A stretch of 64,000 bases of DNA, taken from NCBI GenBank assembly GCA_025677605.1, contig GCA_025677605.1_4110.1, one strand, 5' to 3'. The stretch comes from a phage. The notes below the pieces were generated by a model, which saw nothing but the letters and a program-made list of their open reading frames with translations, had not been told where the DNA came from and did not search any database. Positions 15,507-33,200 of the stretch are shown here, in pieces; the stretch's first letter is position 1, and each line of letters starts with the position of its first letter. The translations under genes and the position numbers were made by a program.

Positions 15507-15732
15507 AGTGTTCGCTCATTTCATTCATATATTCATAGCACGATAGGTATATAATTTTTTTAATCATAAAAGACATATCAGATTTATCACTGTCCTCTGC
15601 AATACGAAAAATATAACGCATATTAGCAAAGATATAAAGAGGTATATCAGATGCTTCAGTACCAGAAAATATATCTATAATAAACCCATAACTGAAATCC
15701 GATGCTGGTGCTTGTTCAAAAGTATTGTCCAT
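15496..15732 (-). CDS. hypothetical small protein
   Basis: 78 aa ORF in array. Confidence 0.4.
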   Translation of the reverse strand: MDNTFEQAPASDFSYGFIIDIFSGTEASDIPLYIFANMRYIFRIAEDSDKSDMSFMIKKIIYLSCYEYMNEMSEHYDL

Positions 15733-15922
15733 TTTTCATCCTTATAATACCCAATAGGTACTTAATATACGTCTCAACTGAAGCCTCCTGGTATTGTGTC
15801 CCTATGTACATCAGTAACTGTAATTCCGACACGTCATTTTGATTGGAAGACCTGATTGCAGTGAACATTTGAGCACTGTATTGGTTAAGAATATCTTGCA
15901 TGTCTCTGTGTCTTATACCCAC
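15716..15922 (-). CDS. LGT-motif family small protein
   Basis: 68 aa; MYIGTQYQEASV. Confidence 0.5.
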   Translation of the reverse strand: MGIRHRDMQDILNQYSAQMFTAIRSSNQNDVSELQLLMYIGTQYQEASVETYIKYLLGIIRMKNGQYF

Positions 15923-16140
15923 GGTGACTCCCCCTTTCCTTGAACTTTATTCTGAATTAATTTCTGAAGGTTAAAAATGTAATCTTTCATCACAACCTCT
16001 TGATAATTAGTTCCAAGAAAATGATTCAACTTGTAATCATGATATGGTCGCCTCTTCTTCAAAAGGGGATGAAATGTATTCCATTTTGTGTAAATGTCAG
16101 AACACATCCTGTAGTACTGGTGTTTTGGAATATACTTCAT
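15913..16140 (-). CDS. LGT-motif family small protein
   Basis: 75 aa; HFLGTNYQEVVM. Confidence 0.5.
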   Translation of the reverse strand: MKYIPKHQYYRMCSDIYTKWNTFHPLLKKRRPYHDYKLNHFLGTNYQEVVMKDYIFNLQKLIQNKVQGKGESPWV

Positions 16141-16706
16141 AGTATACCATCAACGAATACATCTTCGAATTCAAATGTTGAAGTATCAATGTATAAATTA
16201 CTTCTGAAGTTCATTTGCATCTCCATATATAGACGTAGAATCATGTACATGTCATCAGTACATGACAATTGAAACATCTGCTCTTCAAATGCGTTGTAAT
16301 TGTATTTCGGGATTTCAATAGTACTACTCTTTACTGTATCCCACCAGTTCTGAATACCAAAATATAATTCAGTACTTTTTCCTGTATAAAACAAATTCAT
16401 GATTTGATTTTTTTCATTCAAGTACAAACGGTTCGTGCCGCATACGGCAATACCAATACCAATAAGTGTAAGTGCAGGAAGACCGTCACGTAATACACGA
16501 CAACGATGAAATGTACCACCCTTATAGACTGACTGTAGGTAGTATCCTTCTTTAATAATGTCTCGTGATGGAATCAAACCAGTACTGCAATCCTTAAGCA
16601 AAGGAACTATAATGTTGATTTTACGAGATAATTCCTGCATTTCCTCTGCATTGTAAGCATCAATAATCATTTCATGTGCACCTTTTGAATTAATATTACT
16701 GTGCAT
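16137..16706 (-). CDS. FQ-motif family protein
   Basis: 189 aa; motif EEQMFQLSCTD. Confidence 0.6.
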   Translation of the reverse strand: MHSNINSKGAHEMIIDAYNAEEMQELSRKINIIVPLLKDCSTGLIPSRDIIKEGYYLQSVYKGGTFHRCRVLRDGLPALTLIGIGIAVCGTNRLYLNEKNQIMNLFYTGKSTELYFGIQNWWDTVKSSTIEIPKYNYNAFEEQMFQLSCTDDMYMILRLYMEMQMNFRSNLYIDTSTFEFEDVFVDGIL

Positions 16707-24624: not shown

Positions 24625-25013
24625 TTAATAGGGTATTCCGTTTCATTCACTACATACGACATAATCCATCCGTAATGGATAGGATGATATTTGTCTGAAT
24701 CAGGAATAAAATATAAAGCTGTACTGGGATTATAACTGAAGAAATCCCTCTCGTCAAATGTTAATCTGGCTAACTTAATTTTCCTTGGAATTGCATGAGG
24801 ACGAACTGCATTCTTTACACAGAATATACCATCTTTGTATTTTGGTTCGATAACACCCAATGCACTCTGGATTAACTCCTGAAAGACTAAATTGATTTGT
24901 GCAAATGAATCCTTGTTGTTATGCATTTCGTGCCATAAATCTCGTCTTGCATTTAACATCATTATTACTGGTCTAAGATCCTGTACTATTGTTAGATTCT
25001 GCATTGTATTCAT
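24612..25013 (-). CDS. hypothetical protein
   Basis: 133 aa ORF. Confidence 0.45.
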   Translation of the reverse strand: MNTMQNLTIVQDLRPVIMMLNARRDLWHEMHNNKDSFAQINLVFQELIQSALGVIEPKYKDGIFCVKNAVRPHAIPRKIKLARLTFDERDFFSYNPSTALYFIPDSDKYHPIHYGWIMSYVVNETEYPIKWER

Positions 25014-25230
25014 TTATCTCATTCTGTAACTTAACAACCAAAATTTGCGTATGAATTTTTCGCTCAAGGTGCTTGATAAATTTCTGTACCATTTCTTCTT
25101 GTACTGATGTACCAAGATAAAATAACATATTAAATTCTGATAATCGCAGAGCAAAATCTTCATCGCCCCCCTGTAAACAAAAATCCCTGTACTTCGATGC
25201 GTACAAATGATGGTTTACATTTTTGTACAT
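24973..25230 (-). CDS. LGT-motif family small protein
   Basis: 85 aa; FYLGTSVQEEMV. Confidence 0.5.
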   Translation of the reverse strand: MYKNVNHHLYASKYRDFCLQGGDEDFALRLSEFNMLFYLGTSVQEEMVQKFIKHLERKIHTQILVVKLQNEINEYNAESNNSTGS

Positions 25231-25433
25231 TTAGACTCCTTTGGTGTGCATACTATCTCTGTTCGTAAAGCCCTTATGTATGCATCAACGAATTGTGGCT
25301 GTGCTCTCGTTCCTAGATAAAATAATAAATCGAACTCTGCCATTTTAACATTAAAAGGATCTGAATCTACATTTCGAATAAACTGTCTGTACTTCAATTC
25401 ATATCCGTTAGGCATCTTCTTGTATACTATCAT
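25215..25433 (-). CDS. LGT-motif family small protein
   Basis: 72 aa; FYLGTRAQPQFV. Confidence 0.5.
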   Translation of the reverse strand: MIVYKKMPNGYELKYRQFIRNVDSDPFNVKMAEFDLLFYLGTRAQPQFVDAYIRALRTEIVCTPKESKCTKM

Positions 25434-25743
25434 ATTCTATACAATCACCTCTTTTAATCGAATCCCAAACTTCTTTCATCCTCTTCTGTAAACTGCACAT
25501 AATATCTATATCAAACATATAAGGGTCATGAATTAGACTGTACTGAAATAATTCATCTTCCTGCATAAGAGAAAGATCCTGAAGCAACTCGTACTTACCT
25601 AAACTCCTGGGACTCAAATAAGCAAAATATTCTTTACCGTCCTCAAAAACATAATGTACTTCATGATTCATGTACTTCTTGTAATTCTCATGCGTATAAG
25701 CAAATATACAACCGGAATTAATTCGGTGAATGTTGAATTTCAT
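25408..25743 (-). CDS. FQ-motif family protein
   Basis: 111 aa; motif EDELFQYSLIH. Confidence 0.6.
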   Translation of the reverse strand: MKFNIHRINSGCIFAYTHENYKKYMNHEVHYVFEDGKEYFAYLSPRSLGKYELLQDLSLMQEDELFQYSLIHDPYMFDIDIMCSLQKRMKEVWDSIKRGDCIEYDSIQEDA

Positions 25744-25752
25744 ATTAATCTC

Positions 25753-26109
25753 TTATACGTAAATTGGATGAATATTTTGAAGGAAATGCTTAGAAATATT
25801 CATACATGATATCATCTGCCTTTGTACTTCCTTCATCTCTTTGTATGTCAACCCAAAAGAATCATCGTATACTAACATGTACTGAAACTCTTCTTCTTCA
25901 GAGATATCAACTAGATTCGGTACTGCTATCGTATTTTCATATGATTTGATACCTTCTACCCAATAGAAACAATTATCAACTTTATTGTACTCAAATATCT
26001 TAACCCCAGGCCCACCCTGTACATTGGTCAACGCAATGAAACATGTATTCGCTCTTTTTATACAATTGATCTTACGCATTATCGCATTATCTCCATCTCT
26101 CTCCGTCAT
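25753..26109 (-). CDS. FQ-family-like protein
   Basis: 118 aa; EEEEFQYMLVY. Confidence 0.55.
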   Translation of the reverse strand: MTERDGDNAIMRKINCIKRANTCFIALTNVQGGPGVKIFEYNKVDNCFYWVEGIKSYENTIAVPNLVDISEEEEFQYMLVYDDSFGLTYKEMKEVQRQMISCMNISKHFLQNIHPIYV

Positions 26110-26332
26110 CGCAAGAGTACTGGTACGTTGTCGTTAGGGTAGGAATCATGTTCGTAATCGGCATATTATTCACAATAACCGTTACGGGCATCATAACCGT
26201 CTCTTTTCTACTCTGTCCTGTCTTTGTGCAATTCATCTTGTGCATTTCATCTGAATCCAGATACGCTAATACAAACGGTGCAATCCCAAGAACAATACAC
26301 AAGACGATAAGGAAATTTAAAAATTTTAACAT
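26087..26332 (-). CDS. small membrane protein
   Basis: 81 aa; N-terminal hydrophobic helix FLNFLIVLCIVLGIAPFVLAY. Confidence 0.45.
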   Translation of the reverse strand: MLKFLNFLIVLCIVLGIAPFVLAYLDSDEMHKMNCTKTGQSRKETVMMPVTVIVNNMPITNMIPTLTTTYQYSCDDGERWR

Positions 26333-26370
26333 AATCTGTACCCTATGATTAACGTTAGTGTACTATAGCA

Positions 26371-26601
26371 CTACAATAGAGTACTGTCAACTGCTTTGTT
26401 CTCTATTATACTCATTAAACCCCAAATTAGATAACGAACACTATCAGCTTGATAGTTAGTACCTACTGTGCATTTTAAAATTAACTCATCTTTCAGTACT
26501 GCACGTTCTTCTTGGGATATAGGAAGAGAATTTATTTGTTTTATTTGTGGTTGTAAAGTATTAATAAGCTTGCAGTACTCTTCGAATGATAATCTTTTCA
26601 T
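26371..26601 (-). CDS. LGT-motif family small protein
   Basis: 76 aa; KCTVGTNYQADSV. Confidence 0.5.
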   Translation of the reverse strand: MKRLSFEEYCKLINTLQPQIKQINSLPISQEERAVLKDELILKCTVGTNYQADSVRYLIWGLMSIIENKAVDSTLL

Positions 26602-26604
26602 GGT

Positions 26605-26946
26605 TCAGTACTCAATAATGTGTTCTTCATAAGCACTATTAGGCTCCTGTTTAGTTTCTTTTATTAGTACTATCATCTTATGTGCCAATGGCATAGGAAA
26701 CTCTAAATCCCATACTAATGATTCTTGAAAGTATTCTTCTTCAGATAAAGTACTTAAATCTTCAATGTCAATGTGTTCGTACATGTTATATTTGTAATCA
26801 GCAAAAGATATATAAAAACCTCTTGTAGAATCGTAAGTAATCGTGAATGGCTTACCTTTGTAGTCCATTACATCTTTACATAGACTGCATTTGATATATG
26901 TACTTGCAAATGATTTATAAACCTTAAGTTGAATATTAGTTTTCAT
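26605..26946 (-). CDS. FQ-motif family protein
   Basis: 113 aa; motif EEEYFQESLVW. Confidence 0.6.
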   Translation of the reverse strand: MKTNIQLKVYKSFASTYIKCSLCKDVMDYKGKPFTITYDSTRGFYISFADYKYNMYEHIDIEDLSTLSEEEYFQESLVWDLEFPMPLAHKMIVLIKETKQEPNSAYEEHIIEY

Positions 26947-26948
26947 TT

Positions 26949-27170
26949 TTAAACACCTATTCCATTAGCAATAGCAGTACTTAACGCTAACAAATACTTC
27001 TGTACTGCTTGCTCTTGATGATCTGTACCTAAAAGTATATACACCCATAATTCACTGTAGTGTACATCTTCTGTATAAGGGTTGTTGTAACTTTTTGATA
27101 ATATAGCATCAAATTCAGATGCATGAACCCTTGTGAACTTAAGAATATCTTGTTGTGTTATGATTCTCAT
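26949..27170 (-). CDS. LGT-motif family small protein
   Basis: 73 aa; ILLGTDHQEQAV. Confidence 0.55.
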   Translation of the reverse strand: MRIITQQDILKFTRVHASEFDAILSKSYNNPYTEDVHYSELWVYILLGTDHQEQAVQKYLLALSTAIANGIGV

Positions 27171-27382
27171 AGCTTTTCCTGTATAAGCTTCTTAAGTATT
27201 TCTATGTGTGAATTAACAGTTCTTTCTTGATGCTGTGTTCCTAAGAGTATCAGTACTATCATCTCTGAACGCAAAAGATTTTTTTCAAGTTCCCCTATAT
27301 CAGTTCTTGTATCAAGTACTAAAAATTTGTGATTATTCTTTCTGAATAGTTCTAAGTACTCTTGATTTGATATTGTCTTCAT
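27167..27382 (-). CDS. LGT-motif family small protein
   Basis: 71 aa; LILLGTQHQERTV. Confidence 0.55.
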   Translation of the reverse strand: MKTISNQEYLELFRKNNHKFLVLDTRTDIGELEKNLLRSEMIVLILLGTQHQERTVNSHIEILKKLIQEKL

Positions 27383-27609
27383 AGTTTATCCCTGATGCCA
27401 TTTAAAAGTGCTCTAATATGCTCCTGTACGAATTTGTACTGACTGTCTGTTCCTAGAGTGAGTAACAATCTTAAATCTGAACTTTTGATATGATATTCTA
27501 AATCATTATTTGATTCTTGCCTCAGTTTCTGAAAGGATGAGAAGTTTGCTGCCATTAGTTCAATGTATTCTGCTGTTCCTAGGGGTTTGTGTATGTGCTG
27601 TCTGTGCAT
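27379..27609 (-). CDS. LGT-motif family small protein
   Basis: 76 aa; LTLGTDSQYKFV. Confidence 0.55.
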   Translation of the reverse strand: MHRQHIHKPLGTAEYIELMAANFSSFQKLRQESNNDLEYHIKSSDLRLLLTLGTDSQYKFVQEHIRALLNGIRDKL

Positions 27610-27815
27610 TTTAATTGTATTACCCTTTTAAGTGTATTAATATAATCCACGATGATGTGTTCTTGATAGTTAGTTCCTATAGTAGCTAGAACATAGATTT
27701 CACTTATTAGAATATTTTTTTCATCCTGTGATAATTCTTCTGACCAGCTACGATGCAACTTTGGAATTAAACTACTTAATAGTTGGTTGTATTCAGTAGG
27801 TGAAATGATTTTCAT
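27579..27815 (-). CDS. LGT-motif family small protein
   Basis: 78 aa; LATIGTNYQEHII. Confidence 0.55.
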   Translation of the reverse strand: MKIISPTEYNQLLSSLIPKLHRSWSEELSQDEKNILISEIYVLATIGTNYQEHIIVDYINTLKRVIQLKCTDSTYTNP

Positions 27816-28027
27816 TTACATCTTCTCAGTACTGATTCTTTAAGTTCATCGATGTAGTCCTCAACAAATTGTTCTTGTAGGTTTGTTCCGAGATGTAACA
27901 GTACTCTTAAATCTGCTCTAAGTACTTCTTTGTCATCTTCATCTATATCAGACAGTGATATGTTTAAGAATTTACTTGAATTCTCTATAAGTAATATTAC
28001 TTCATCACCTTCGCTTAAAATTTTCAT
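27812..28027 (-). CDS. LGT-motif family small protein
   Basis: 71 aa; LHLGTNLQEQFV. Confidence 0.55.
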   Translation of the reverse strand: MKILSEGDEVILLIENSSKFLNISLSDIDEDDKEVLRADLRVLLHLGTNLQEQFVEDYIDELKESVLRRCK

Positions 28028-28239
28028 AATCTTTGTGTTTTCCTCGACAGTAGGTACAGGTAACGTTCAGTGCATTGTTCTTGATAGTTTGTTCCTAATA
28101 AATGAACTAATTGTTGTTCAGCTATAGAAAGCTGTTTATCTTCATAACAAGCGTATCGTTGTTTCCTATGGTATTCTTTATTGATAACATCAAGGATGAT
28201 AACACCGTATTCGTCATCTGTCAAGTGTTTCATGTGCAT
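28024..28239 (-). CDS. LGT-motif family small protein
   Basis: 71 aa; VHLLGTNYQEQC. Confidence 0.55.
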   Translation of the reverse strand: MHMKHLTDDEYGVIILDVINKEYHRKQRYACYEDKQLSIAEQQLVHLLGTNYQEQCTERYLYLLSRKTQRL

Positions 28240-28471
28240 TTCTTTTTCTTATATGTTTAGTTAAAAGGTATATTAGTTTTCTTACGTACTCGTCTTGATA
28301 GTTAGTCCCTAATAGTGCAAGAAGTTTTGCTTCAACTAAAGCTAATTGTCGTTCTTCAAATGTGTGTTCCAGAATGTACTTGGGGTTTGATTTTTTAGAA
28401 ATTGCACTATTAGTCTTCATTATAATCTTATGATATTCATTGACTGTTAAGATTTTTATATATTTGGTCAT
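28214..28471 (-). CDS. LGT-motif family small protein
   Basis: 85 aa; LALLGTNYQDEYV. Confidence 0.55.
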   Translation of the reverse strand: MTKYIKILTVNEYHKIIMKTNSAISKKSNPKYILEHTFEERQLALVEAKLLALLGTNYQDEYVRKLIYLLTKHIRKRNAHETLDR

Positions 28472-28727
28472 GTATCTTTTCCTGAATAGTCATTTTAAGA
28501 TATCTAAGAATCGATCGAACATAATACTCCTGTCTATCGGTTCCAAGAAAGTACAGGAGTTGTTGATATAATACTTCTGCACTCCTTGCAGCAGGGGTTT
28601 GATTTGGGTCTTTTGGAAGTTGATTTGTATGTTTTCTGGATTTAATTATTCTTTCTTTTATTTCATCGTCTGTTAAGTATATCATTTGCATTTTATGTTC
28701 CTCACATGAATTGTTTGGATTAAACAT
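28437..28727 (-). CDS. LGT-motif family small protein
   Basis: 96 aa; YFLGTDRQEYYV; start likely internal. Confidence 0.5.
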   Translation of the reverse strand: MFNPNNSCEEHKMQMIYLTDDEIKERIIKSRKHTNQLPKDPNQTPAARSAEVLYQQLLYFLGTDRQEYYVRSILRYLKMTIQEKIHDQIYKNLNSQ

Positions 28728-28918
28728 TCAATCCAAGATGTAACATATCTTGTTTGATATTGTGTGCCTAAGAGACTCTGCATTTTAAACTCTGCTTCAA
28801 GTTCATATCTCTTTTCTATCGTAAAGCTTAAATGACCATATTCTGCATCGTATCTTCTCAGTGATTCCCCAATTCTATCAAATCTTTCTGCTAAGTTGAT
28901 GTTATTCACAGTATTCAT
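28682..28918 (-). CDS. LGT-motif family small protein
   Basis: 78 aa; SLLGTQYQTRYV. Confidence 0.55.
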   Translation of the reverse strand: MNTVNNINLAERFDRIGESLRRYDAEYGHLSFTIEKRYELEAEFKMQSLLGTQYQTRYVTSWIECLIQTIHVRNIKCK

Positions 28919-29178
28919 CGATCAGTACACCTCAGTGGTTGGGTCATTTGATAAAAGTACAGCTTACCTCTGATTTCCATTAACAACTCGGCTATGACGC
29001 GATTTACTTCTGTCTCTTGATAGTTTGTTCCTAAGAAGACACCCATCTTTAACTCACGATGCATAATCATCTTCTTACTGTGTTGAATTTCTTGGCTGTA
29101 ATAGATTGCATTACGTTTAGGTGAGATTTTTGCTAGTCGCTCGTTATATTCATCTTGACTTAAATTAATCATTTGCAT
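28915..29178 (-). CDS. LGT-motif family small protein
   Basis: 87 aa; VFLGTNYQETEV; N-terminus MQMINLSQDEY. Confidence 0.55.
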   Translation of the reverse strand: MQMINLSQDEYNERLAKISPKRNAIYYSQEIQHSKKMIMHRELKMGVFLGTNYQETEVNRVIAELLMEIRGKLYFYQMTQPLRCTDR

Positions 29179-29393
29179 TTACTTTGGACCTCATTTTGAA
29201 GTGCATTAATGACCTTCAGTACAGCACTCGCTTGATAGTTTGTTCCTAAGACTGAAAGCATCTTGATCTCATTTACTACAATCCACTTATTTGATTGTTC
29301 AATAATGTGACTTTCATAAATGGCCTTGCGTAATGAATAAGTTTTTGCAAGACGTACATAATATTCATCTTTACTTAAATTAATCATTTGCAT
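29169..29393 (-). CDS. LGT-motif family small protein
   Basis: 74 aa; SVLGTNYQASAV; N-terminus MQMINLSKDEY. Confidence 0.55.
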   Translation of the reverse strand: MQMINLSKDEYYVRLAKTYSLRKAIYESHIIEQSNKWIVVNEIKMLSVLGTNYQASAVLKVINALQNEVQSKCK

Positions 29394-29602
29394 TTACTTT
29401 TAACCTCTTTCTGGAGTGCATCAATCCATAGGTCTATATACGTTTGTTGATAGTTTGTGCCTAAGAGTGCCTCTACATAGAGTTCAGCTACCTTTGCGTG
29501 CTTTAGGTCAACAGGGATGCTCTTATCGCTTGATAACATTCTCCTTCTGCTGGTGCATGTTTTCAGAAGCCTGATGTATTCAACACCTTGTAATTTTCTC
29601 AT
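29384..29602 (-). CDS. LGT-motif family small protein
   Basis: 72 aa; ALLGTNYQQTYI. Confidence 0.55.
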   Translation of the reverse strand: MRKLQGVEYIRLLKTCTSRRRMLSSDKSIPVDLKHAKVAELYVEALLGTNYQQTYIDLWIDALQKEVKSKCK

Positions 29603-29814
29603 TCTCTGGATATCACCTTGTTACGTAGACTTGCTAACCATGCGTCAGTATAGATGTTTTGATAGTTTGTCCCAATGAAGATAGATAGCTTCATTTCAGT
29701 TATTATAACACATTTGTCCACTTGTGCAATAGATTTGTTTAAAGAAATACTAGAAACTTTTGCTTGTATAGTTCGCAACAGCCTGTAATATTCATACCCA
29801 CTAAGGATTTTCAT
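29599..29814 (-). CDS. LGT-motif family small protein
   Basis: 71 aa; IFIGTNYQNIYT. Confidence 0.55.
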   Translation of the reverse strand: MKILSGYEYYRLLRTIQAKVSSISLNKSIAQVDKCVIITEMKLSIFIGTNYQNIYTDAWLASLRNKVISRE

Positions 29815-30061
29815 TCTCTCGTCTCCAGACTTCCGTTCTTATATGTTGTTGATATGCTTCCAGATAGTTCTCTATTGCCTTAGAGATTGTTTGTGTATCG
29901 TCGCCCGTCATCAGTACAAGCATCTCTGCTTCACAGTGTATAAGTCTGCTAATATCATTAGTGAGTTTATCAGATACCGTATCATAGTGTTTGTGGATTA
30001 GTTTCTGAAATAGTTTAACGTACATAATGTGATTTATTCTGGATCGCATTGTCTTTTCCAT
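29801..30061 (-). CDS. LGT-family-like small protein (diverged)
   Basis: 86 aa; VLMTGDDTQTIS at the family motif position. Confidence 0.45.
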   Translation of the reverse strand: MEKTMRSRINHIMYVKLFQKLIHKHYDTVSDKLTNDISRLIHCEAEMLVLMTGDDTQTISKAIENYLEAYQQHIRTEVWRRENENP

Positions 30062-30285
30062 TCTCTTTTGGCCTGTCGGGTTTTATACGCTACAAGGTTT
30101 CTTAGTGCATTGATATAACGATCAGTGAAGATATCTTGTTTATTAGTTCCAACGAATTTAAGAAGAAACACGTCACCATTAACTACATCATTCTCAGGGG
30201 AAGGATAAAGTTCATTGTTCTTGCGAAGGGTGTTTAGTAAAGAGAATAGGGCAGATTGATACTCAGTGCTTGATAATACTTTCAT
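30034..30285 (-). CDS. LGT-motif family small protein
   Basis: 83 aa; KFVGTNKQDIFT. Confidence 0.55.
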   Translation of the reverse strand: MKVLSSTEYQSALFSLLNTLRKNNELYPSPENDVVNGDVFLLKFVGTNKQDIFTDRYINALRNLVAYKTRQAKREWKRQCDPE

Positions 30286-30509
30286 TAGTTCATTCCCTTT
30301 CTTTCTATATGTTTCATAAGAACATTAAGATACTCACCCACAAACCTATTCTGATACTGCGTCCCCATGAATTCAAACAGCCATACTTCAGCAACCATTT
30401 CTTCAATTTCATTCCAAGATAAGTACATCATAGTGAAGTAAATGTGGTTCTCTTTTTGAGATGCACTCCTTGAGCGAGCCTCGTATTCAAAGTTATTAAT
30501 GCAGTTCAT
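30285..30509 (-). CDS. LGT-motif family small protein
   Basis: 74 aa; EFMGTQYQNRFV. Confidence 0.55.
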   Translation of the reverse strand: MNCINNFEYEARSRSASQKENHIYFTMMYLSWNEIEEMVAEVWLFEFMGTQYQNRFVGEYLNVLMKHIERKGMN

Positions 30510-30718
30510 AGTTTACTCCTGATGTATTTCTCAAGAGCTATTAGATACTCTTGGACATAAGATTTCTGGTGGTCAGTTCCTAAGAAGACACCCAGAAGTA
30601 ATTCTTTTTCCATAACTTTTGATAAGTATACATCATCCCTGTCTGCATATATCAGCAAGATTTCAATCTGCTTAGAATTGTAACGTTTCCTATATTGCTC
30701 TGGTGTTAATATAATCAT
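30506..30718 (-). CDS. LGT-motif family small protein
   Basis: 70 aa; VFLGTDHQKSYV. Confidence 0.55.
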   Translation of the reverse strand: MIILTPEQYRKRYNSKQIEILLIYADRDDVYLSKVMEKELLLGVFLGTDHQKSYVQEYLIALEKYIRSKL

Positions 30719-30924
30719 AGTTTACTCTTTATATCTTCAATTAAAAATCCAATACAATCATTGACATACTCTTCCTGAAAGTTAGTCCCCAGTACAGCCA
30801 ACATGCGATACTCTGCTGACCTTATCGCTCTTTCAGTTTTTGGTAAGTTACGTGGTATAGTTACCATCAATTCAAGATACTCCACCATACGACTCAATGC
30901 TTGTCTTTGTGTTATAGTTTTCAT
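30715..30924 (-). CDS. LGT-motif family small protein
   Basis: 69 aa; AVLGTNFQEEYV. Confidence 0.55.
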   Translation of the reverse strand: MKTITQRQALSRMVEYLELMVTIPRNLPKTERAIRSAEYRMLAVLGTNFQEEYVNDCIGFLIEDIKSKL

Positions 30925-31121
30925 AATTTACACCTCGCTCGTATGTCAGCTTTCAAAGATTCCAAATAGTGCGTTACCCACACTTCCTGATAGTTGGTTC
31001 CCATCGTAATCAACAGGTACAACTCAACTCTTTCTAAGTGCACATTGCTTTGGTAAATCCTTGCCGTGTTTTTACGTAGTATATGATGATATTCATCTTG
31101 GGTTAATGTACGCATTTTCAT
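30921..31121 (-). CDS. LGT-motif family small protein
   Basis: 66 aa; ITMGTNYQEVWV. Confidence 0.55.
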   Translation of the reverse strand: MKMRTLTQDEYHHILRKNTARIYQSNVHLERVELYLLITMGTNYQEVWVTHYLESLKADIRARCKL

Positions 31122-31315
31122 AGTTTACCATTTATCTCTAAACATAACTCTTTTACATATAGTTTAACATATTCATTTTGTAAGTTAGTTCCTAAGAATA
31201 GTTCCATAACTAATTCACGTTTATAGGCATTACCACGTTTATGAGACTTATACATTATCATAGCCATGTTATTGATAAGTCTTTCGTGATGCTCTTCTTG
31301 TGTTAAAATACGCAT
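31118..31315 (-). CDS. LGT-motif family small protein (first gene of array)
   Basis: 65 aa; LFLGTNLQNEYV. Confidence 0.55.
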   Translation of the reverse strand: MRILTQEEHHERLINNMAMIMYKSHKRGNAYKRELVMELFLGTNLQNEYVKLYVKELCLEINGKL

Positions 31316-31349
31316 AGGGCAAATTCCATAGGTTCATATATGAAAAAAC

Positions 31350-31378
31350 ATCATACCCCATATGAGGCATGATGTCAA
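31350..31378 (-). promoter_or_regulatory. sigma70-like promoter driving the LGT array
   Basis: minus strand TTGACA, 17 nt spacer, TATGAT; about 30 nt upstream of ATG at 31315. Confidence 0.5.
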
Positions 31379-31381
31379 GTG

Positions 31382-32203
31382 TTAAAGCTTACCCATGTAA
31401 GTAAGTTCTTCCATAATAAATTTTAGTCCAGCTTCGTCGGTGAGTTCAGTACAGCCATCTTTGATTTTAACATGTTGCATATGATTAATTAAATTAGTAT
31501 ACTTCAACATATCCTCAAGGTCAGCAGCTTCAACTGAGTTTTCAAACAGTACAGCTATGATTTCTTCAGAATCGAACCTATTGTTATATTTGAATAGTTC
31601 ACGACGATTTGTTAAATTATGAGTAACTCCGTATTTGTAAACAACTTCACTATTGTGGATGAACTTATTGACATAGAAATAAGCTTCATGCGAACCATTG
31701 AATGTCTTACGCTTATAACAATCTGGGCAGTTTGTTATATTACCATTTTCAACTATATGACACATTTTTCGTTCAAAAATACAACCACATTTACATTCAA
31801 GATTGCATGTGTAATTACCATATACTCCATGTCTATTTGATTTACCTGACGGAATATACCCATTACATCTTATATCATTTCCCTGAAATTCTAGAATGCA
31901 ATTAGCAACGTAAACTATATCTTTATCAGTATATCGTATACGAGAAATATTATTAGCTTTCATCAAATAATTAGCTGACCTTGTAAGTAAAACACCATTA
32001 TATTCATAAAGGATTGGTGTTTTATTTCCTATATATTCCGATGATTTTTTGATAGCATATCCTAAGATTTTTATCGATGTGTGTTTATTTGAAATTTCAT
32101 TTGTATAAAATTTCGGTGTTTTAATATTATGAGTGTTGTAAATTACATTTATATTTTCAGCCAACATATAATTGAATGTACGACCGCCGCGTATAATTTG
32201 CAT
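31382..32203 (-). CDS. possible GIY-YIG-like nuclease with Cys-cluster (zinc-binding) region
   Basis: 273 aa; AYFYVNKF...VVYKYGVTHNLTNRRELF resembles GIY...YIG...R pattern; CNLECKCGC...CPDC cluster; assignment tentative. Confidence 0.5.
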   Translation of the reverse strand: MQIIRGGRTFNYMLAENINVIYNTHNIKTPKFYTNEISNKHTSIKILGYAIKKSSEYIGNKTPILYEYNGVLLTRSANYLMKANNISRIRYTDKDIVYVANCILEFQGNDIRCNGYIPSGKSNRHGVYGNYTCNLECKCGCIFERKMCHIVENGNITNCPDCYKRKTFNGSHEAYFYVNKFIHNSEVVYKYGVTHNLTNRRELFKYNNRFDSEEIIAVLFENSVEAADLEDMLKYTNLINHMQHVKIKDGCTELTDEAGLKFIMEELTYMGKL

Positions 32204-32437
32204 ATTAAGTCTCCCTGATAATTGTAATTATTATATCACACATATATTTTTTATCCCATCTATGAACACATTCACACGCGACTAAGCATTAATAGCCTTT
32301 ACTTTGATAATAATATAATAACAGTCCGAAACTATTTCATACGTTATAGTGTACTGGTTAAAATAAAAAACGATGCATTTTTAAAATGCACCGATTATTT
32401 TCTGACTAATAGTTTTAGTACTGAATCATTTAATTCA

Positions 32438-32715: not shown

Positions 32716-33117
32716 TTACAGTCCTAAGATTGTGCGTGCTTCGTTACGCTCCTTAGTCTGCTGCATGATGTAAGCGAGCAAGTCCTTACTAATGTATCCC
32801 GTGTCCATAGCTTCACGGATGGATACATCATAAGCACCGAACCCCGTGCGAACGATACGCACATCATTCAGGTTAGTGTTATAGATACCGCCGAGATCAA
32901 CGGCTTCAAATACTGCATCAACAGTATATTCATTGTTACCATCATTGAAGTTTTCCAGTTCAATCGTATTGTTAGTTGCCCAACGTTTACAGCTTCCAAT
33001 GATGCGGCAATATTCAGGGTGCATGTGACCATTGTTTACAGCATACTCCATGCCAGCTTTACCAAAAGTCCGAGCCAGTACTAAAACGTCAGCGTAGGAA
33101 GTGATTGAGAAAGTCAT
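32716..33117 (-). CDS. hypothetical protein
   Basis: start moved to ATG at 33115-33117 (MTFSITSY) behind RBS aaggag; ORF-track extension reads into the 5' hairpin. Confidence 0.55.
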   Translation of the reverse strand: MTFSITSYADVLVLARTFGKAGMEYAVNNGHMHPEYCRIIGSCKRWATNNTIELENFNDGNNEYTVDAVFEAVDLGGIYNTNLNDVRIVRTGFGAYDVSIREAMDTGYISKDLLAYIMQQTKERNEARTILGL

Positions 33118-33136
33118 GGTAGTACTCCTTAAGTTA

Positions 33137-33160
33137 GGAGGGAGAACCATTTCCCCCCTC
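33137..33160 (-). other. GC-rich 5'-UTR stem-loop (PeSL-like)
   Basis: ggagggagaaccatttcccccctc between promoter and RBS. Confidence 0.5.
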
Positions 33161-33172
33161 TCTATGTAAAAC

Positions 33173-33200
33173 ATTATACACTTTACTAAGTACTATGCAA
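33173..33200 (-). promoter_or_regulatory. sigma70-like early promoter
   Basis: minus strand TTGCAT, 16 nt spacer, TATAAT. Confidence 0.55.

What the first reader, a model, noticed from the sequence alone, without database searches (positions are those of the whole stretch)
31382..32203. Putative nuclease with C-terminal GIY-YIG-like motifs and a Cys cluster
AYFYVNKF...VVYKYGVTHNLTNRRELF looks like GIY and YIG motifs plus the conserved Arg, but it lies in the C-terminal third, the reverse of classical Seg/I-TevI architecture. A Cys cluster (CNLECKCGC...CPDCYKRK) precedes it. This could be an atypical homing or defence nuclease.
Basis: inference. Interest (0 to 1): 0.4.

Follow-up and report, generated by a model that had tools for sequence, protein, structure and literature searches.

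The report
T5orf172-type phage endonuclease gene cassette
This 273-residue ORF in a jumbo coliphage is an unannotated member of a known phage nuclease class (zinc-finger DNA-binding front, GIY-YIG/T5orf172 nuclease at the C-terminus), and it sits in a present-or-absent gene cassette as homing endonuclease genes usually do, so it is real but fairly ordinary.

Summary
The ORF (window 31382-32203, minus strand, 273 aa) and both motif strings are real. Direct Pfam, NCBIfam, PADLOC and PDB sequence searches find nothing significant. PHROG 681 'endonuclease' matches at 4e-14. A profile search of 1.8 billion proteins gives 87 relatives. Of these, 52 carry DUF4379 and 46 carry CapR zinc fingers. 27 match MUG113 and 25 match T5orf172, the GIY-YIG-related families. 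Across 57 domain sequences Y177, K190, G192, R200, E230, G250 and E253 are invariant. A bona fide T5orf172 family shows the same Y/K/G/R/E/E pattern. The AlphaFold model of residues 166-273 (pLDDT 92.5) has beta-beta-alpha-beta-alpha topology. It matches phage CapR/T5orf172/GIY-YIG proteins significantly (TM 0.7-0.84) and solved GIY-YIG nucleases only weakly (TM up to 0.57, not significant). A C-terminal nuclease domain is the normal architecture of the T5orf172 homing-endonuclease class described in vibriophage ICP1, so it is not atypical. The gene is a low-GC cassette with terminator-like hairpins on both sides. Among about 39 related Asteriusvirus records only phage A4 shares it. About 30 have an empty slot and three have an unrelated ORF. 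Alleles are mosaic but intact and under purifying selection. Verdict: a new member of a known kind, most likely a free-standing homing-type endonuclease. Activity is untested.

The parts
31382..32203 (-). Complete CDS, 273 aa plus stop. This is the T5orf172-class endonuclease gene.
   Evidence: ORF list. 100% identical to a protein annotated 'hypothetical' on a 351,638-bp contig. PHROG 681 'endonuclease' E=4e-14 over aa 26-268.
31829..32203 (-). N-terminal domain, aa 1-125. It has no zinc-ligand cysteine pattern (only C102 and C113) and no Pfam name. It is the presumed DNA-binding or target-recognition part.
   Evidence: Shared with a subset of phage zinc-finger/T5orf172 proteins (P0007, P0040, P0043, P0056) and duplicated in tandem in P0008. 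AF2 pLDDT mostly 71-92. dN/dS between alleles 0.14-0.67, mostly 0.14-0.39.
31703..31828 (-). CapR/DUF4379-type zinc finger, aa 126-167. Cys ligand candidates are C137/C139/C141 and C159/C162.
   Evidence: C137 and C159 are at least 90% conserved in 87 relatives. In P0040 the aligned stretch is a DUF4379 hit of 28.9 bits against a cut-off of 24.5. 52 of 87 relatives hit DUF4379 and 46 hit CapR. The family profile matches DUF4379 modules in PDB chains. It is the fastest-evolving part, with dN/dS 0.4-1.1.
31385..31702 (-). T5orf172 / GIY-YIG-like catalytic domain, aa 168-273. Invariant residues are Y177, K190, G192, R200, E230, G250 and E253.
   Evidence: Alignment A4. AF2 pLDDT 92.5, pTM 0.85, beta-beta-alpha-beta-alpha topology. 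BFVD Foldseek gives 81 hits at E<=1e-3 with TM 0.7-0.84 among the best hits, including proteins named T5orf172 and GIY-YIG. PDB Foldseek top hits include Slx1, BH0048 and HIGLE, but not significantly. The T5orf172/MUG113 Pfam hits of relative P0006 fall in the aligned region.
32210..32215 (-). Shine-Dalgarno GGGAGA, 6 nt upstream of the ATG.
   Evidence: Read directly from the sequence.
32371..32393 (-). Terminator-like hairpin plus T-run ending the upstream transcription unit. It marks the 5' edge of the cassette.
   Evidence: Consensus scan. Homology to the empty-site phage 121Q and to PBECO4 resumes just beyond it, around 32400.
31347..31378 (-). 13-bp hairpin plus T-run directly after the stop codon. 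It overlaps a strong sigma-70-like promoter (TTGACA-17-TATGAT, 11 of 12) facing the downstream paralog array.
   Evidence: Consensus scan. Conserved in A4 and PBECO4 but absent from the 121Q empty site.
31583..32414 (-). Divergent patch relative to phage A4. The patch is only 40-68% identical in DNA. The flanks are 97-100% identical.
   Evidence: Sliding identity over the allele alignment. Three-way DNA alignment.

Best explanation
The gene encodes a site-specific DNA endonuclease of the T5orf172 branch of the GIY-YIG superfamily. The N-terminal domain and a CapR/DUF4379-type zinc finger would bind a DNA target. They tether the C-terminal single-active-site catalytic domain, which cuts nearby. 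Proposed catalytic residues are Tyr177 on strand 1, Lys190-x-Gly192 on strand 2, Arg200 in helix 1, Glu230 in the helix after strand 3, and the family motif D-G-x-T-Glu253. The gene is a self-contained cassette with its own ribosome site and a terminator-like hairpin on each side. It most likely behaves as a free-standing homing endonuclease gene: in mixed infections it would cut relatives that lack the cassette, and recombinational repair would copy the cassette and adjacent markers. Shown here: homology, conserved residues, predicted fold, cassette polymorphism and mosaicism. Inferred: nuclease activity, the target site and homing.
For: Family placement: PHROG 681 'endonuclease' matches at 4e-14. 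Of 87 relatives from the exhaustive profile search, 52 hit DUF4379, 46 CapR, 27 MUG113, 25 T5orf172 and 2 GIY-YIG. The closest distant relative, P0006, matches profile positions 29-265 at E=2e-17. It passes the Pfam thresholds for T5orf172 (21.7 bits, cut-off 20) and MUG113 (29.5 bits, cut-off 22.3) in the region aligned to our YFYV/KYG/R motifs. Residues: seven invariant residues in 57 domains. The same Y/K/G/R/E/E order with similar spacing is invariant in a bona fide T5orf172 family, and hhalign between the two families gives P=1.6e-4. Fold: pLDDT 92.5 with GIY-YIG topology. Significant structural matches include phage proteins named CapR-homology, T5orf172 and GIY-YIG. Slx1, BH0048 and HIGLE are 7 of the top 17 PDB hits. 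BH0048 is also the top PDB sequence-profile hit, aligning Y, R and E230. Precedent: a T5orf172 protein, ICP1 Odn, cleaves DNA in vitro and is inactivated by a single Glu-to-Ala change (PMC8263062). CapR zinc-finger cysteines are required for DNA binding (PMC8096241). Mobility signature: 39 phage records share the flanks but only A4 has the gene. About 30 records have an empty slot and 3 have an unrelated 121-aa ORF. GC falls to 27-31% in the cassette against 33-44% in the flanks. An 830-bp patch differs 32-60% from A4 while the surrounding DNA is 97-100% identical. The L009 allele is a chimera of a Klebsiella-phage-like N-terminus and an Asteriusvirus-like C-terminus. [quoted passage not shown]
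Against: No Pfam, NCBIfam or PDB sequence hit on the protein itself reaches significance. Matches to solved GIY-YIG structures are not significant (E>=0.4). Profile-profile probability against T5orf172 is only about 50%. The canonical second Tyr, the helix-1 His/Tyr and the Asn of classical GIY-YIG enzymes are not identifiable. All six alleles are intact with dN/dS well below 1. The Klebsiella-phage copy is as diverged as its neighbouring gene (43% against 42% identity). Both points fit a long-resident, selected gene better than a purely selfish invade-and-decay cycle. The neighbours are small genes of unknown function, not the essential genes that such endonuclease genes usually flank. No cleavage site, homing event or activity has been demonstrated.
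Confidence: 0.6

Rival explanations
1. Same biochemistry, different biology. The nuclease is a domesticated, selection-maintained phage weapon like ICP1 Odn. It would cut co-infecting competitor phages, satellites or host DNA to the benefit of the carrier, rather than spread itself by homing.
For: All six alleles are intact and under purifying selection (dN/dS 0.06-0.39 outside the zinc finger). The zinc-finger/specificity region evolves fast (dN/dS 0.4-1.1). Retention at the same locus in two phage genera, with divergence equal to the neighbouring gene. Precedent for neofunctionalised T5orf172 nucleases in ICP1 and coliphages (PMC8263062; PMC10448857).
Against: The N-terminal domain shows no similarity to satellite or host replication proteins; its only relatives are other phage zinc-finger/T5orf172 proteins. 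Most Asteriusvirus isolates do without the gene. No PADLOC match. The cassette polymorphism and mosaic flanks are just as well explained by homing.
Confidence: 0.25
2. It is a catalytically inactive DNA-binding protein that acts as a transcriptional regulator. T5orf172 was originally predicted to be a DNA-binding domain, and CapR is a repressor. It might control the downstream array of small paralogs.
For: The gene sits directly upstream of the 24-member array and its strong promoter. CapR-type zinc fingers bind DNA and repress transcription in the PLE satellite (PMC8096241). Classical GIY-YIG residues (second Tyr, helix-1 His/Tyr, Asn) are missing.
Against: The Y/K/G/R/E/E constellation is invariant across 57 diverse homologues, which points to a catalytic site. 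CapR itself lacks the T5orf172 domain. A T5orf172 protein has proven Glu-dependent nuclease activity (PMC8263062). About 30 related phages keep the array without this gene.
Confidence: 0.07
3. The motif resemblance is coincidental and the domain is not a GIY-YIG fold.
For: No direct Pfam GIY-YIG or T5orf172 hit. Foldseek E-values against PDB GIY-YIG nucleases are 0.6-3.
Against: Transitive profile links pass Pfam thresholds. A confident model has the right topology. TM is 0.51-0.57 to Slx1 and HIGLE, and GIY-YIG enzymes are enriched among the top hits. There are significant structural matches to proteins named GIY-YIG and T5orf172. The invariant residue constellation is shared with a bona fide T5orf172 family.
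Confidence: 0.04

Closest known systems
ICP1-type T5orf172 homing endonucleases with CapR-like zinc fingers (e.g. ICP1 gp174, gp165; Netter et al. 2021 PMC8096241; Barth, Dunham & Seed 2023 PMC10448857)
   Same: N-terminal zinc-finger DNA-binding region plus C-terminal T5orf172 domain. Variable presence among near-identical phages. Allele mosaicism and domain shuffling. Location at a boundary of genetic exchange.
   Different: Host phage is a jumbo coliphage (Asteriusvirus-like), a lineage not mentioned in those papers. There is only one zinc finger, with a C-x-C-x-C first knuckle instead of CxxC. It has an extra N-terminal domain without zinc-ligand cysteines. It is too diverged for the Pfam models. 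No frameshifted or decayed copies were seen. It is not next to an essential gene.
Odn (ICP1 gp88), origin-directed T5orf172 nuclease (PMC8263062)
   Same: C-terminal T5orf172 domain with conserved Arg and Glu. It lacks the helix-1 His/Tyr of classical GIY-YIG enzymes. It is a phage-encoded site-directed nuclease.
   Different: Odn's DNA-binding part is a RepA_N domain captured from the satellite it attacks. Here the N-terminus resembles only other phage endonucleases, and no satellite target is evident.
Phage 121Q gp604 'endonuclease' and orthologues, annotated 'DUF4379 domain-containing protein'
   Same: A paralog within the same phage genus: 29% identity over aa 140-265, E=1e-12. It has DUF4379 and DUF723 zinc fingers plus a weak T5orf172 C-terminal domain.
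   Different: It is 365 aa with several zinc-finger modules. It sits directly after the major capsid gene, a classical homing-endonuclease position. It lacks the N-terminal domain found here.
I-TevI and Seg endonucleases of phage T4 (classical GIY-YIG homing endonucleases)
   Same: Catalytic domain tethered to a DNA-binding region that includes a small zinc finger. Free-standing or intron-borne mobile genes. The Gly-to-Arg spacing of 8 residues (G192 to R200) equals I-TevI G19 to R27 (I-TevI numbering from my own knowledge).
   Different: Domain order is reversed, with the catalytic domain N-terminal in I-TevI and Seg. Here the 'YIG' Tyr is Lys, and no equivalent of the helix-1 His or Asn90 was identified. 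Sequence similarity is undetectable.
CapR of the Vibrio cholerae PLE satellite (PMC8096241)
   Same: Related zinc-finger DNA-binding module. 46 of 87 relatives hit the Pfam CapR model.
   Different: CapR is a repressor that has lost the nuclease domain. This protein keeps an apparently intact one.

Membership tests
GIY-YIG nuclease superfamily | 'GIY' strand 1 with conserved Tyr | tested here: met
   Y177 in 'YFYV' is invariant in 57 of 57 domain homologues and in 87 of 87 full-length relatives. It lies on predicted strand 1.
GIY-YIG nuclease superfamily | 'YIG' strand 2 with conserved Tyr and Gly | tested here: not met
   Gly192 is invariant, but the Tyr position is an invariant Lys190 (K-Y-G). 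The same substitution is invariant in a bona fide T5orf172 family (K18-I-G20), so it marks the subfamily rather than excluding the superfamily.
GIY-YIG nuclease superfamily | Conserved Arg in helix 1, about 8-10 residues after the Gly | tested here: met
   R200 is invariant, 8 residues after G192, at the start of predicted helix 1.
GIY-YIG nuclease superfamily | Metal-binding Glu in the helix following strand 3 (I-TevI E75) | tested here: met
   E230 is invariant in the helix after strand 3. It aligns to the conserved Glu of the GIY-YIG protein BH0048 (1zg2) in the PDB profile search. Catalytic role not tested.
GIY-YIG nuclease superfamily | Conserved Asn (I-TevI N90) and helix-1 His/Tyr | tested here: inconclusive
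   No invariant Asn, His or Tyr at these positions. An invariant G250-x-x-E253 motif occupies the region instead. Odn likewise lacks the helix-1 His/Tyr (PMC8263062).
GIY-YIG nuclease superfamily | Three-stranded sheet with beta-beta-alpha-beta-alpha fold superposable on solved members | tested here: inconclusive
Pfam T5orf172 (PF10544) / MUG113 (PF13455) | Protein scores above the Pfam gathering threshold | tested here: not met
   No hit even at E<=10.
Pfam T5orf172 (PF10544) / MUG113 (PF13455) | Significant homologues pass the thresholds in the aligned region (transitive membership) | tested here: met
   P0006 scores T5orf172 21.7 against 20 and MUG113 29.5 against 22.3 at aa 167-231, aligned to our aa ~173-237. 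25 and 27 of 87 relatives hit at E<=0.01. BFVD structural hits include proteins named 'T5 Orf172 DNA-binding domain-containing' (E=1.8e-5) and 'GIY-YIG domain-containing' (E=9.5e-5).
Pfam T5orf172 (PF10544) / MUG113 (PF13455) | Profile-profile match to an independent bona fide T5orf172 family | tested here: inconclusive
   hhalign of A4 against the 121Q gp606 family (A7) gives P=1.6e-4, probability 50%, 47 columns covering KxG, R and E. The same six invariant residues occur in the same order.
T5orf172 homing endonucleases with CapR/DUF723/DUF4379 zinc fingers (PMC10448857) | DNA-binding zinc finger(s) at the N-terminus, T5orf172 at the C-terminus | tested here: met
   Zinc finger at aa 126-167, nuclease domain at aa 168-273. 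The aligned stretch in relative P0040 is a DUF4379 hit above threshold. 52 of 87 relatives hit DUF4379 and 46 hit CapR. The protein itself has no significant zinc-finger Pfam hit.
T5orf172 homing endonucleases with CapR/DUF723/DUF4379 zinc fingers (PMC10448857) | Variable presence among closely related phage genomes | tested here: met
   Of 39 records sharing the flanks, only A4 shares the gene. The slot is empty in about 30 records and holds an unrelated ORF in 3.
T5orf172 homing endonucleases with CapR/DUF723/DUF4379 zinc fingers (PMC10448857) | Gene instability (frameshifts, deletions) and location near essential genes | tested here: not met
   Six of six alleles are intact with dN/dS<1. 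The neighbours are small genes of unknown function.
T5orf172 homing endonucleases with CapR/DUF723/DUF4379 zinc fingers (PMC10448857) | Site-specific cleavage and super-Mendelian inheritance (homing) | not testable with these tools
   Needs biochemistry and phage crosses. Homing is also unverified for the ICP1 genes (PMC10448857).
Classical I-TevI/Seg GIY-YIG homing endonucleases | N-terminal catalytic domain, C-terminal DNA-binding domain | tested here: not met
   The order is reversed here.

The most novel reading that the evidence does not exclude
The cassette is not merely selfish. It would be a long-maintained, selected specificity-swapping nuclease that polices genetic exchange at the head of the 24-gene paralog array. 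Its target-recognition front (N-terminal domain, zinc finger and first half of the catalytic domain) would be exchanged between phage genera by recombination within the ultra-conserved C-terminal 60 codons. That would give jumbo phages a modular inter-phage competition or exclusion system.
Probability: 0.15. Interest if true: 0.5.

Novelty: new member of a known kind. Interest (0 to 1): 0.27.

Why it matters
The finding gives a function to a protein annotated 'hypothetical' in GenBank (phage A4 gp316 and the identical TPA entry) that standard Pfam and NCBIfam annotation misses. It extends the recently described T5orf172 endonuclease class to the Asteriusvirus and Alcyoneusvirus jumbo phages. 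The locus offers a clean natural test system, because very closely related phages carry an empty slot, an alternative ORF or one of several diverged nuclease alleles. That would allow direct tests of homing, which has not yet been shown experimentally for any T5orf172 gene, and of how such nucleases create recombination boundaries. It does not reveal a new mechanism.

Tried and rejected
Direct searches with the protein gave nothing significant:
- Pfam: best hit zf_VAL1_N, E=0.1.
- NCBIfam: no hit.
- PADLOC defence models: no hit.
- PDB by phmmer: E about 0.1.

Structure searches that led nowhere:
- Foldseek of the full-length model (pTM 0.52) against PDB gave no significant match; Slx1 appeared at rank 11 only.

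Ideas tested and dropped:
- The N-terminal domain as a degenerate copy of the zinc-finger module: hhalign probability 1.6%, rejected.
- The PBECO4 121-aa ORF in the same slot as a remnant of the nuclease: no similarity and no PHROG.
- An intron or other structured RNA associated with the cassette: nothing in Rfam, best E=0.5 for a snoRNA model.
- Terminal repeats of the cassette: none.
- Other copies of the family in the 64-kb window: none.

Full report
**The observation**

Window 31382-32203 holds a single ATG-to-stop ORF of 273 aa on the minus strand. A GGGAGA ribosome site lies 6 nt upstream of the ATG. 'AYFYVNKF...VVYKYGVTHNLTNRRELF' is aa 174-204. The cysteine cluster 'CNLECKCGC...CPDCYKRK' is aa 133-166, with Cys at 133, 137, 139, 141, 148, 159 and 162. 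The window itself comes from a jumbo coliphage of the PBECO4/121Q group (Asteriusvirus). Its closest sequenced relative is Escherichia phage A4. The identical protein exists in public data as a 'hypothetical protein' on a 351,638-bp contig.

**Direct database tests**

The protein itself gives no significant hit in any of these:
- Pfam: best hit zf_VAL1_N, E=0.1.
- NCBIfam: no hit.
- PADLOC: no hit.
- PDB sequences: E about 0.1.

Only PHROG 681, annotated 'endonuclease', matches. The E-value is 4e-14, with aa 26-268 aligned to positions 277-535 of a 576-position profile. The protein is therefore a short member of a family of longer phage endonucleases.

**Reaching the family**

Five close homologues (50-100% identity) were aligned. 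The profile was then searched exhaustively against 1.84 billion representative proteins, which returned 87 proteins at E<=1e-3. Scanning all 87 against Pfam gave these counts:

| Pfam family | Relatives matching (of 87) |
|---|---|
| DUF4379 (treble-clef zinc finger) | 52 |
| CapR homology domain | 46 |
| MUG113 | 27 |
| T5orf172 | 25 |
| DUF723 | 12 |
| GIY-YIG | 2 |

The closest distant relative is P0006 (266 aa), which matches profile positions 29-265 at E=2e-17. It passes the Pfam gathering thresholds for T5orf172 (21.7 bits, cut-off 20) and MUG113 (29.5 bits, cut-off 22.3) at aa 167-231. That stretch aligns with our YFYV/KYG/R motifs. Relative P0040 has an above-threshold DUF4379 hit on the stretch aligned with our cysteine cluster. 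The family profile also matches DUF4379 modules in solved trypanosomal mitoribosome proteins. [quoted passage not shown]

**Conserved residues**

I trimmed 57 homologous C-terminal domains and aligned them. Seven residues are invariant: Y177, K190, G192, R200, E230, G250 and E253. So the 'GIY' tyrosine, the 'YIG' glycine, the arginine 8 residues later and a glutamate in the helix after strand 3 are all present. The 'YIG' tyrosine is replaced by lysine.

An independent, bona fide T5orf172 family is available for comparison: 121Q gp606 (Pfam E=5.6e-13) and its homologues, all carrying PF10544. Its invariant residues are Y6, K18, G20, R30, E58 and E77. This is the same six-residue pattern in the same order with similar spacing. 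hhalign between the two family alignments gives P=1.6e-4 but only 50% probability.

**Fold**

The full-length AlphaFold model is moderate (pLDDT 80, pTM 0.52). The domain model for aa 166-273, built with the 57-sequence alignment, is confident (pLDDT 92.5, pTM 0.85). It has the order beta-beta-alpha-beta-alpha, then a long loop and a final alpha helix.
- Against PDB, Foldseek finds nothing significant. However, GIY-YIG nucleases make up 7 of the top 17 hits: Slx1 (4xm5, TMq 0.57; 7cq4, 0.55), At-HIGLE (0.51) and BH0048 (1zg2).
- BH0048 is also the top hit of the sequence profile against PDB (E=0.45), with Y, R and E230 aligned to its conserved residues.
- Against predicted viral structures there are 81 hits at E<=1e-3, and the best hits have TM 0.7-0.84. 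They include phage proteins named 'CapR homology domain-containing', 'Bacteriophage T5 Orf172 DNA-binding domain-containing' and 'GIY-YIG domain-containing'.

I conclude that the domain belongs to the T5orf172 branch of the GIY-YIG superfamily. The link to solved GIY-YIG structures rests on topology, residue pattern and sub-significant matches, not on a significant superposition.

**Architecture**

| Region | Residues | Features |
|---|---|---|
| N-terminal domain | 1-125 | No zinc-ligand cysteine pattern, no Pfam name. Shared with a subset of phage endonucleases and duplicated in P0008. Not a detectable repeat of the zinc finger. |
| Zinc finger | 126-167 | One CapR/DUF4379-type finger. |
| Nuclease domain | 168-273 | T5orf172 / GIY-YIG-like. 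|

This is the architecture reported for ICP1 'T5orf172 HEGs'. Those proteins have CapR-like zinc fingers (CxxC...CxC) at the N-terminus and T5orf172 at the C-terminus. In CapR itself, mutating the four zinc-finger cysteines abolishes DNA binding (PMC8096241). Barth et al. found that 41.5% of 229 such genes carry CapR domains, and that most of the rest carry the related zinc-finger domains DUF723 or DUF4379 (written DUF4397 in places in that paper) (PMC10448857). One T5orf172 protein, Odn, cuts DNA in vitro and is inactivated by E180A (PMC8263062). It is the norm for this known class.

**Genomic context**

On the minus strand the features lie in this order:
- A terminator-like hairpin at 32393-32371, which ends the upstream unit.
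- A weak promoter-like site at 32340-32312.
- The gene.
- Directly after the stop codon, a 13-bp hairpin plus T-run at 31376-31347. It overlaps an 11-of-12 sigma-70-like promoter facing downstream.

Downstream lies a near-contiguous array of about 70-aa paralogs (PHROG 4148, function unknown). At least 24 copies lie in the window. GC falls to 27-31% across the cassette, against 33-44% in the flanks. No Rfam family or terminal repeat is associated with it.

**Distribution**

39 phage records share the flanks. By tblastn, only A4 among them has a full-length homologue. Two entries for Klebsiella jumbo phages (KP13-7, phiKp_21) have one at 43% identity. The slot shows three states:
- Empty (about 250 bp in 121Q) in about 30 Asteriusvirus records that match only the intergenic edge of the PBECO4 cassette.
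- An unrelated 121-aa ORF in PBECO4 (two records) and BF17.
- The nuclease cassette, in the window and A4.

Metagenomic contigs add three more alleles (L006/L007, L008, L009), all at the same position ahead of the array. In KP13-7 the gene is also syntenic, with the same upstream gene and LGTNYQ-type small genes downstream. It is as diverged as its neighbour: 43% against 42% identity.

**Mosaicism and selection**

Against A4, DNA identity is 97-100% on both sides. It falls to 40-68% from about 211 nt upstream of the ATG to about nt 620 of the gene (window about 31583-32414), then returns to 88-100%.

The L009 allele has an N-terminal 125 aa that is 69% identical to the Klebsiella-phage allele but only 34-43% identical to the Asteriusvirus alleles. 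Its C-terminal 63 aa are 68-81% identical to the Asteriusvirus alleles (79% to the window allele) and 63.5% to KP13-7. It is therefore a chimera.

All six alleles are intact. dS is saturated between most pairs. dN/dS by region:

| Region | dN/dS |
|---|---|
| N-terminal domain | 0.14-0.67 (mostly 0.14-0.39) |
| Zinc finger | 0.4-1.1 |
| GIY part (aa 168-210) | 0.11-0.36 |
| C-terminal 63 aa | 0.06-0.28 |

The last 20-25 residues (ELTDExGLKFIxEELTYM) are almost unchanged even in the Klebsiella phage.

**Interpretation**

The homology and conserved residues make a site-directed GIY-YIG/T5orf172 DNA endonuclease very likely. I put this at about 0.85-0.9. Four features are the usual signature of a free-standing homing endonuclease gene: the presence/absence polymorphism, the low GC, the autonomous cassette structure and the recombination patch. 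They also fit the published observation that such nuclease genes sit at boundaries of genetic exchange (PMC10448857).

Two features argue against a purely selfish element: no decayed copy was seen, and the gene is retained syntenically across two genera. An Odn-like beneficial weapon role therefore remains a real rival, at about 0.25. A non-catalytic regulator role is unlikely, at about 0.07. Nothing about activity, target site or homing has been shown.

**Verdict**

The nuclease interpretation is supported, but 'atypical' is not. This is a new, previously unannotated and Pfam-invisible member of a known class in a phage lineage where the class had not been described. Interest is modest. The main value is better annotation and a convenient natural system (empty slot, alternative ORF, multiple alleles) for testing homing by T5orf172 genes.

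Noticed in passing
window 24976-31333 (minus strand), plus 15719-16149: At least 24 tandem paralogous ORFs of about 65-87 aa share an 'LGTNYQ'-type motif (PHROG 4148, function unknown). Many have overlapping stop and start codons. They lie directly downstream of the nuclease cassette. The array is also present in A4, 121Q and metagenomic relatives, and in short form in Klebsiella phage KP13-7.
   Followed up: partly
window 31347-31378: A 13-bp hairpin plus T-run (terminator-like) overlaps an 11-of-12 sigma-70-like promoter (TTGACA-17-TATGAT) pointing into the paralog array. It is conserved in A4 and PBECO4 but absent from the 121Q empty slot, so it travels with the cassettes.
   Followed up: partly
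window 31385-31570 (aa 211-273); L001, L006, L008, L009, L005: The C-terminal ~60 codons are far more conserved than the rest of the gene in all alleles. The final 'ELTDExGLKFIxEELTYM' is nearly unchanged even in the 43%-identical Klebsiella-phage copy, although this helix is not conserved in the wider family. The recombination breakpoints of two alleles (A4, L009) fall just upstream of it, at about nt 620-680.
   Followed up: partly
L009 (Logan SRR23924980 contig) 317-1132: This allele is chimeric. Its N-terminal 125 aa are 69% identical to the allele of Klebsiella phage KP13-7 (Alcyoneusvirus), while its C-terminus and flanks resemble the Asteriusvirus alleles. This implies exchange of nuclease modules between phage genera.
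   Followed up: partly
L002 2400-2765 (PBECO4; also BF17): An unrelated 121-aa ORF with no Pfam or PHROG match occupies exactly the same slot in PBECO4 and BF17. This is a third state of the locus.
   Followed up: partly
L003 1787-2884 and 3298-3606 (phage 121Q gp604, gp606): Between the major capsid gene and the tail fibre gene, 121Q carries a 365-aa zinc-finger/T5orf172 endonuclease paralog (gp604). Two genes further on is a stand-alone 102-aa T5orf172 protein (gp606). This is a typical homing-endonuclease position next to essential genes.
   Followed up: partly
window 32716-33174: The mechanical ORF is 152 aa, but homologues (PHROG 10173, KP13-7 gene, A4 annotation of 144 aa) align from residue about 21. 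The true start is probably an internal ATG.
   Followed up: no
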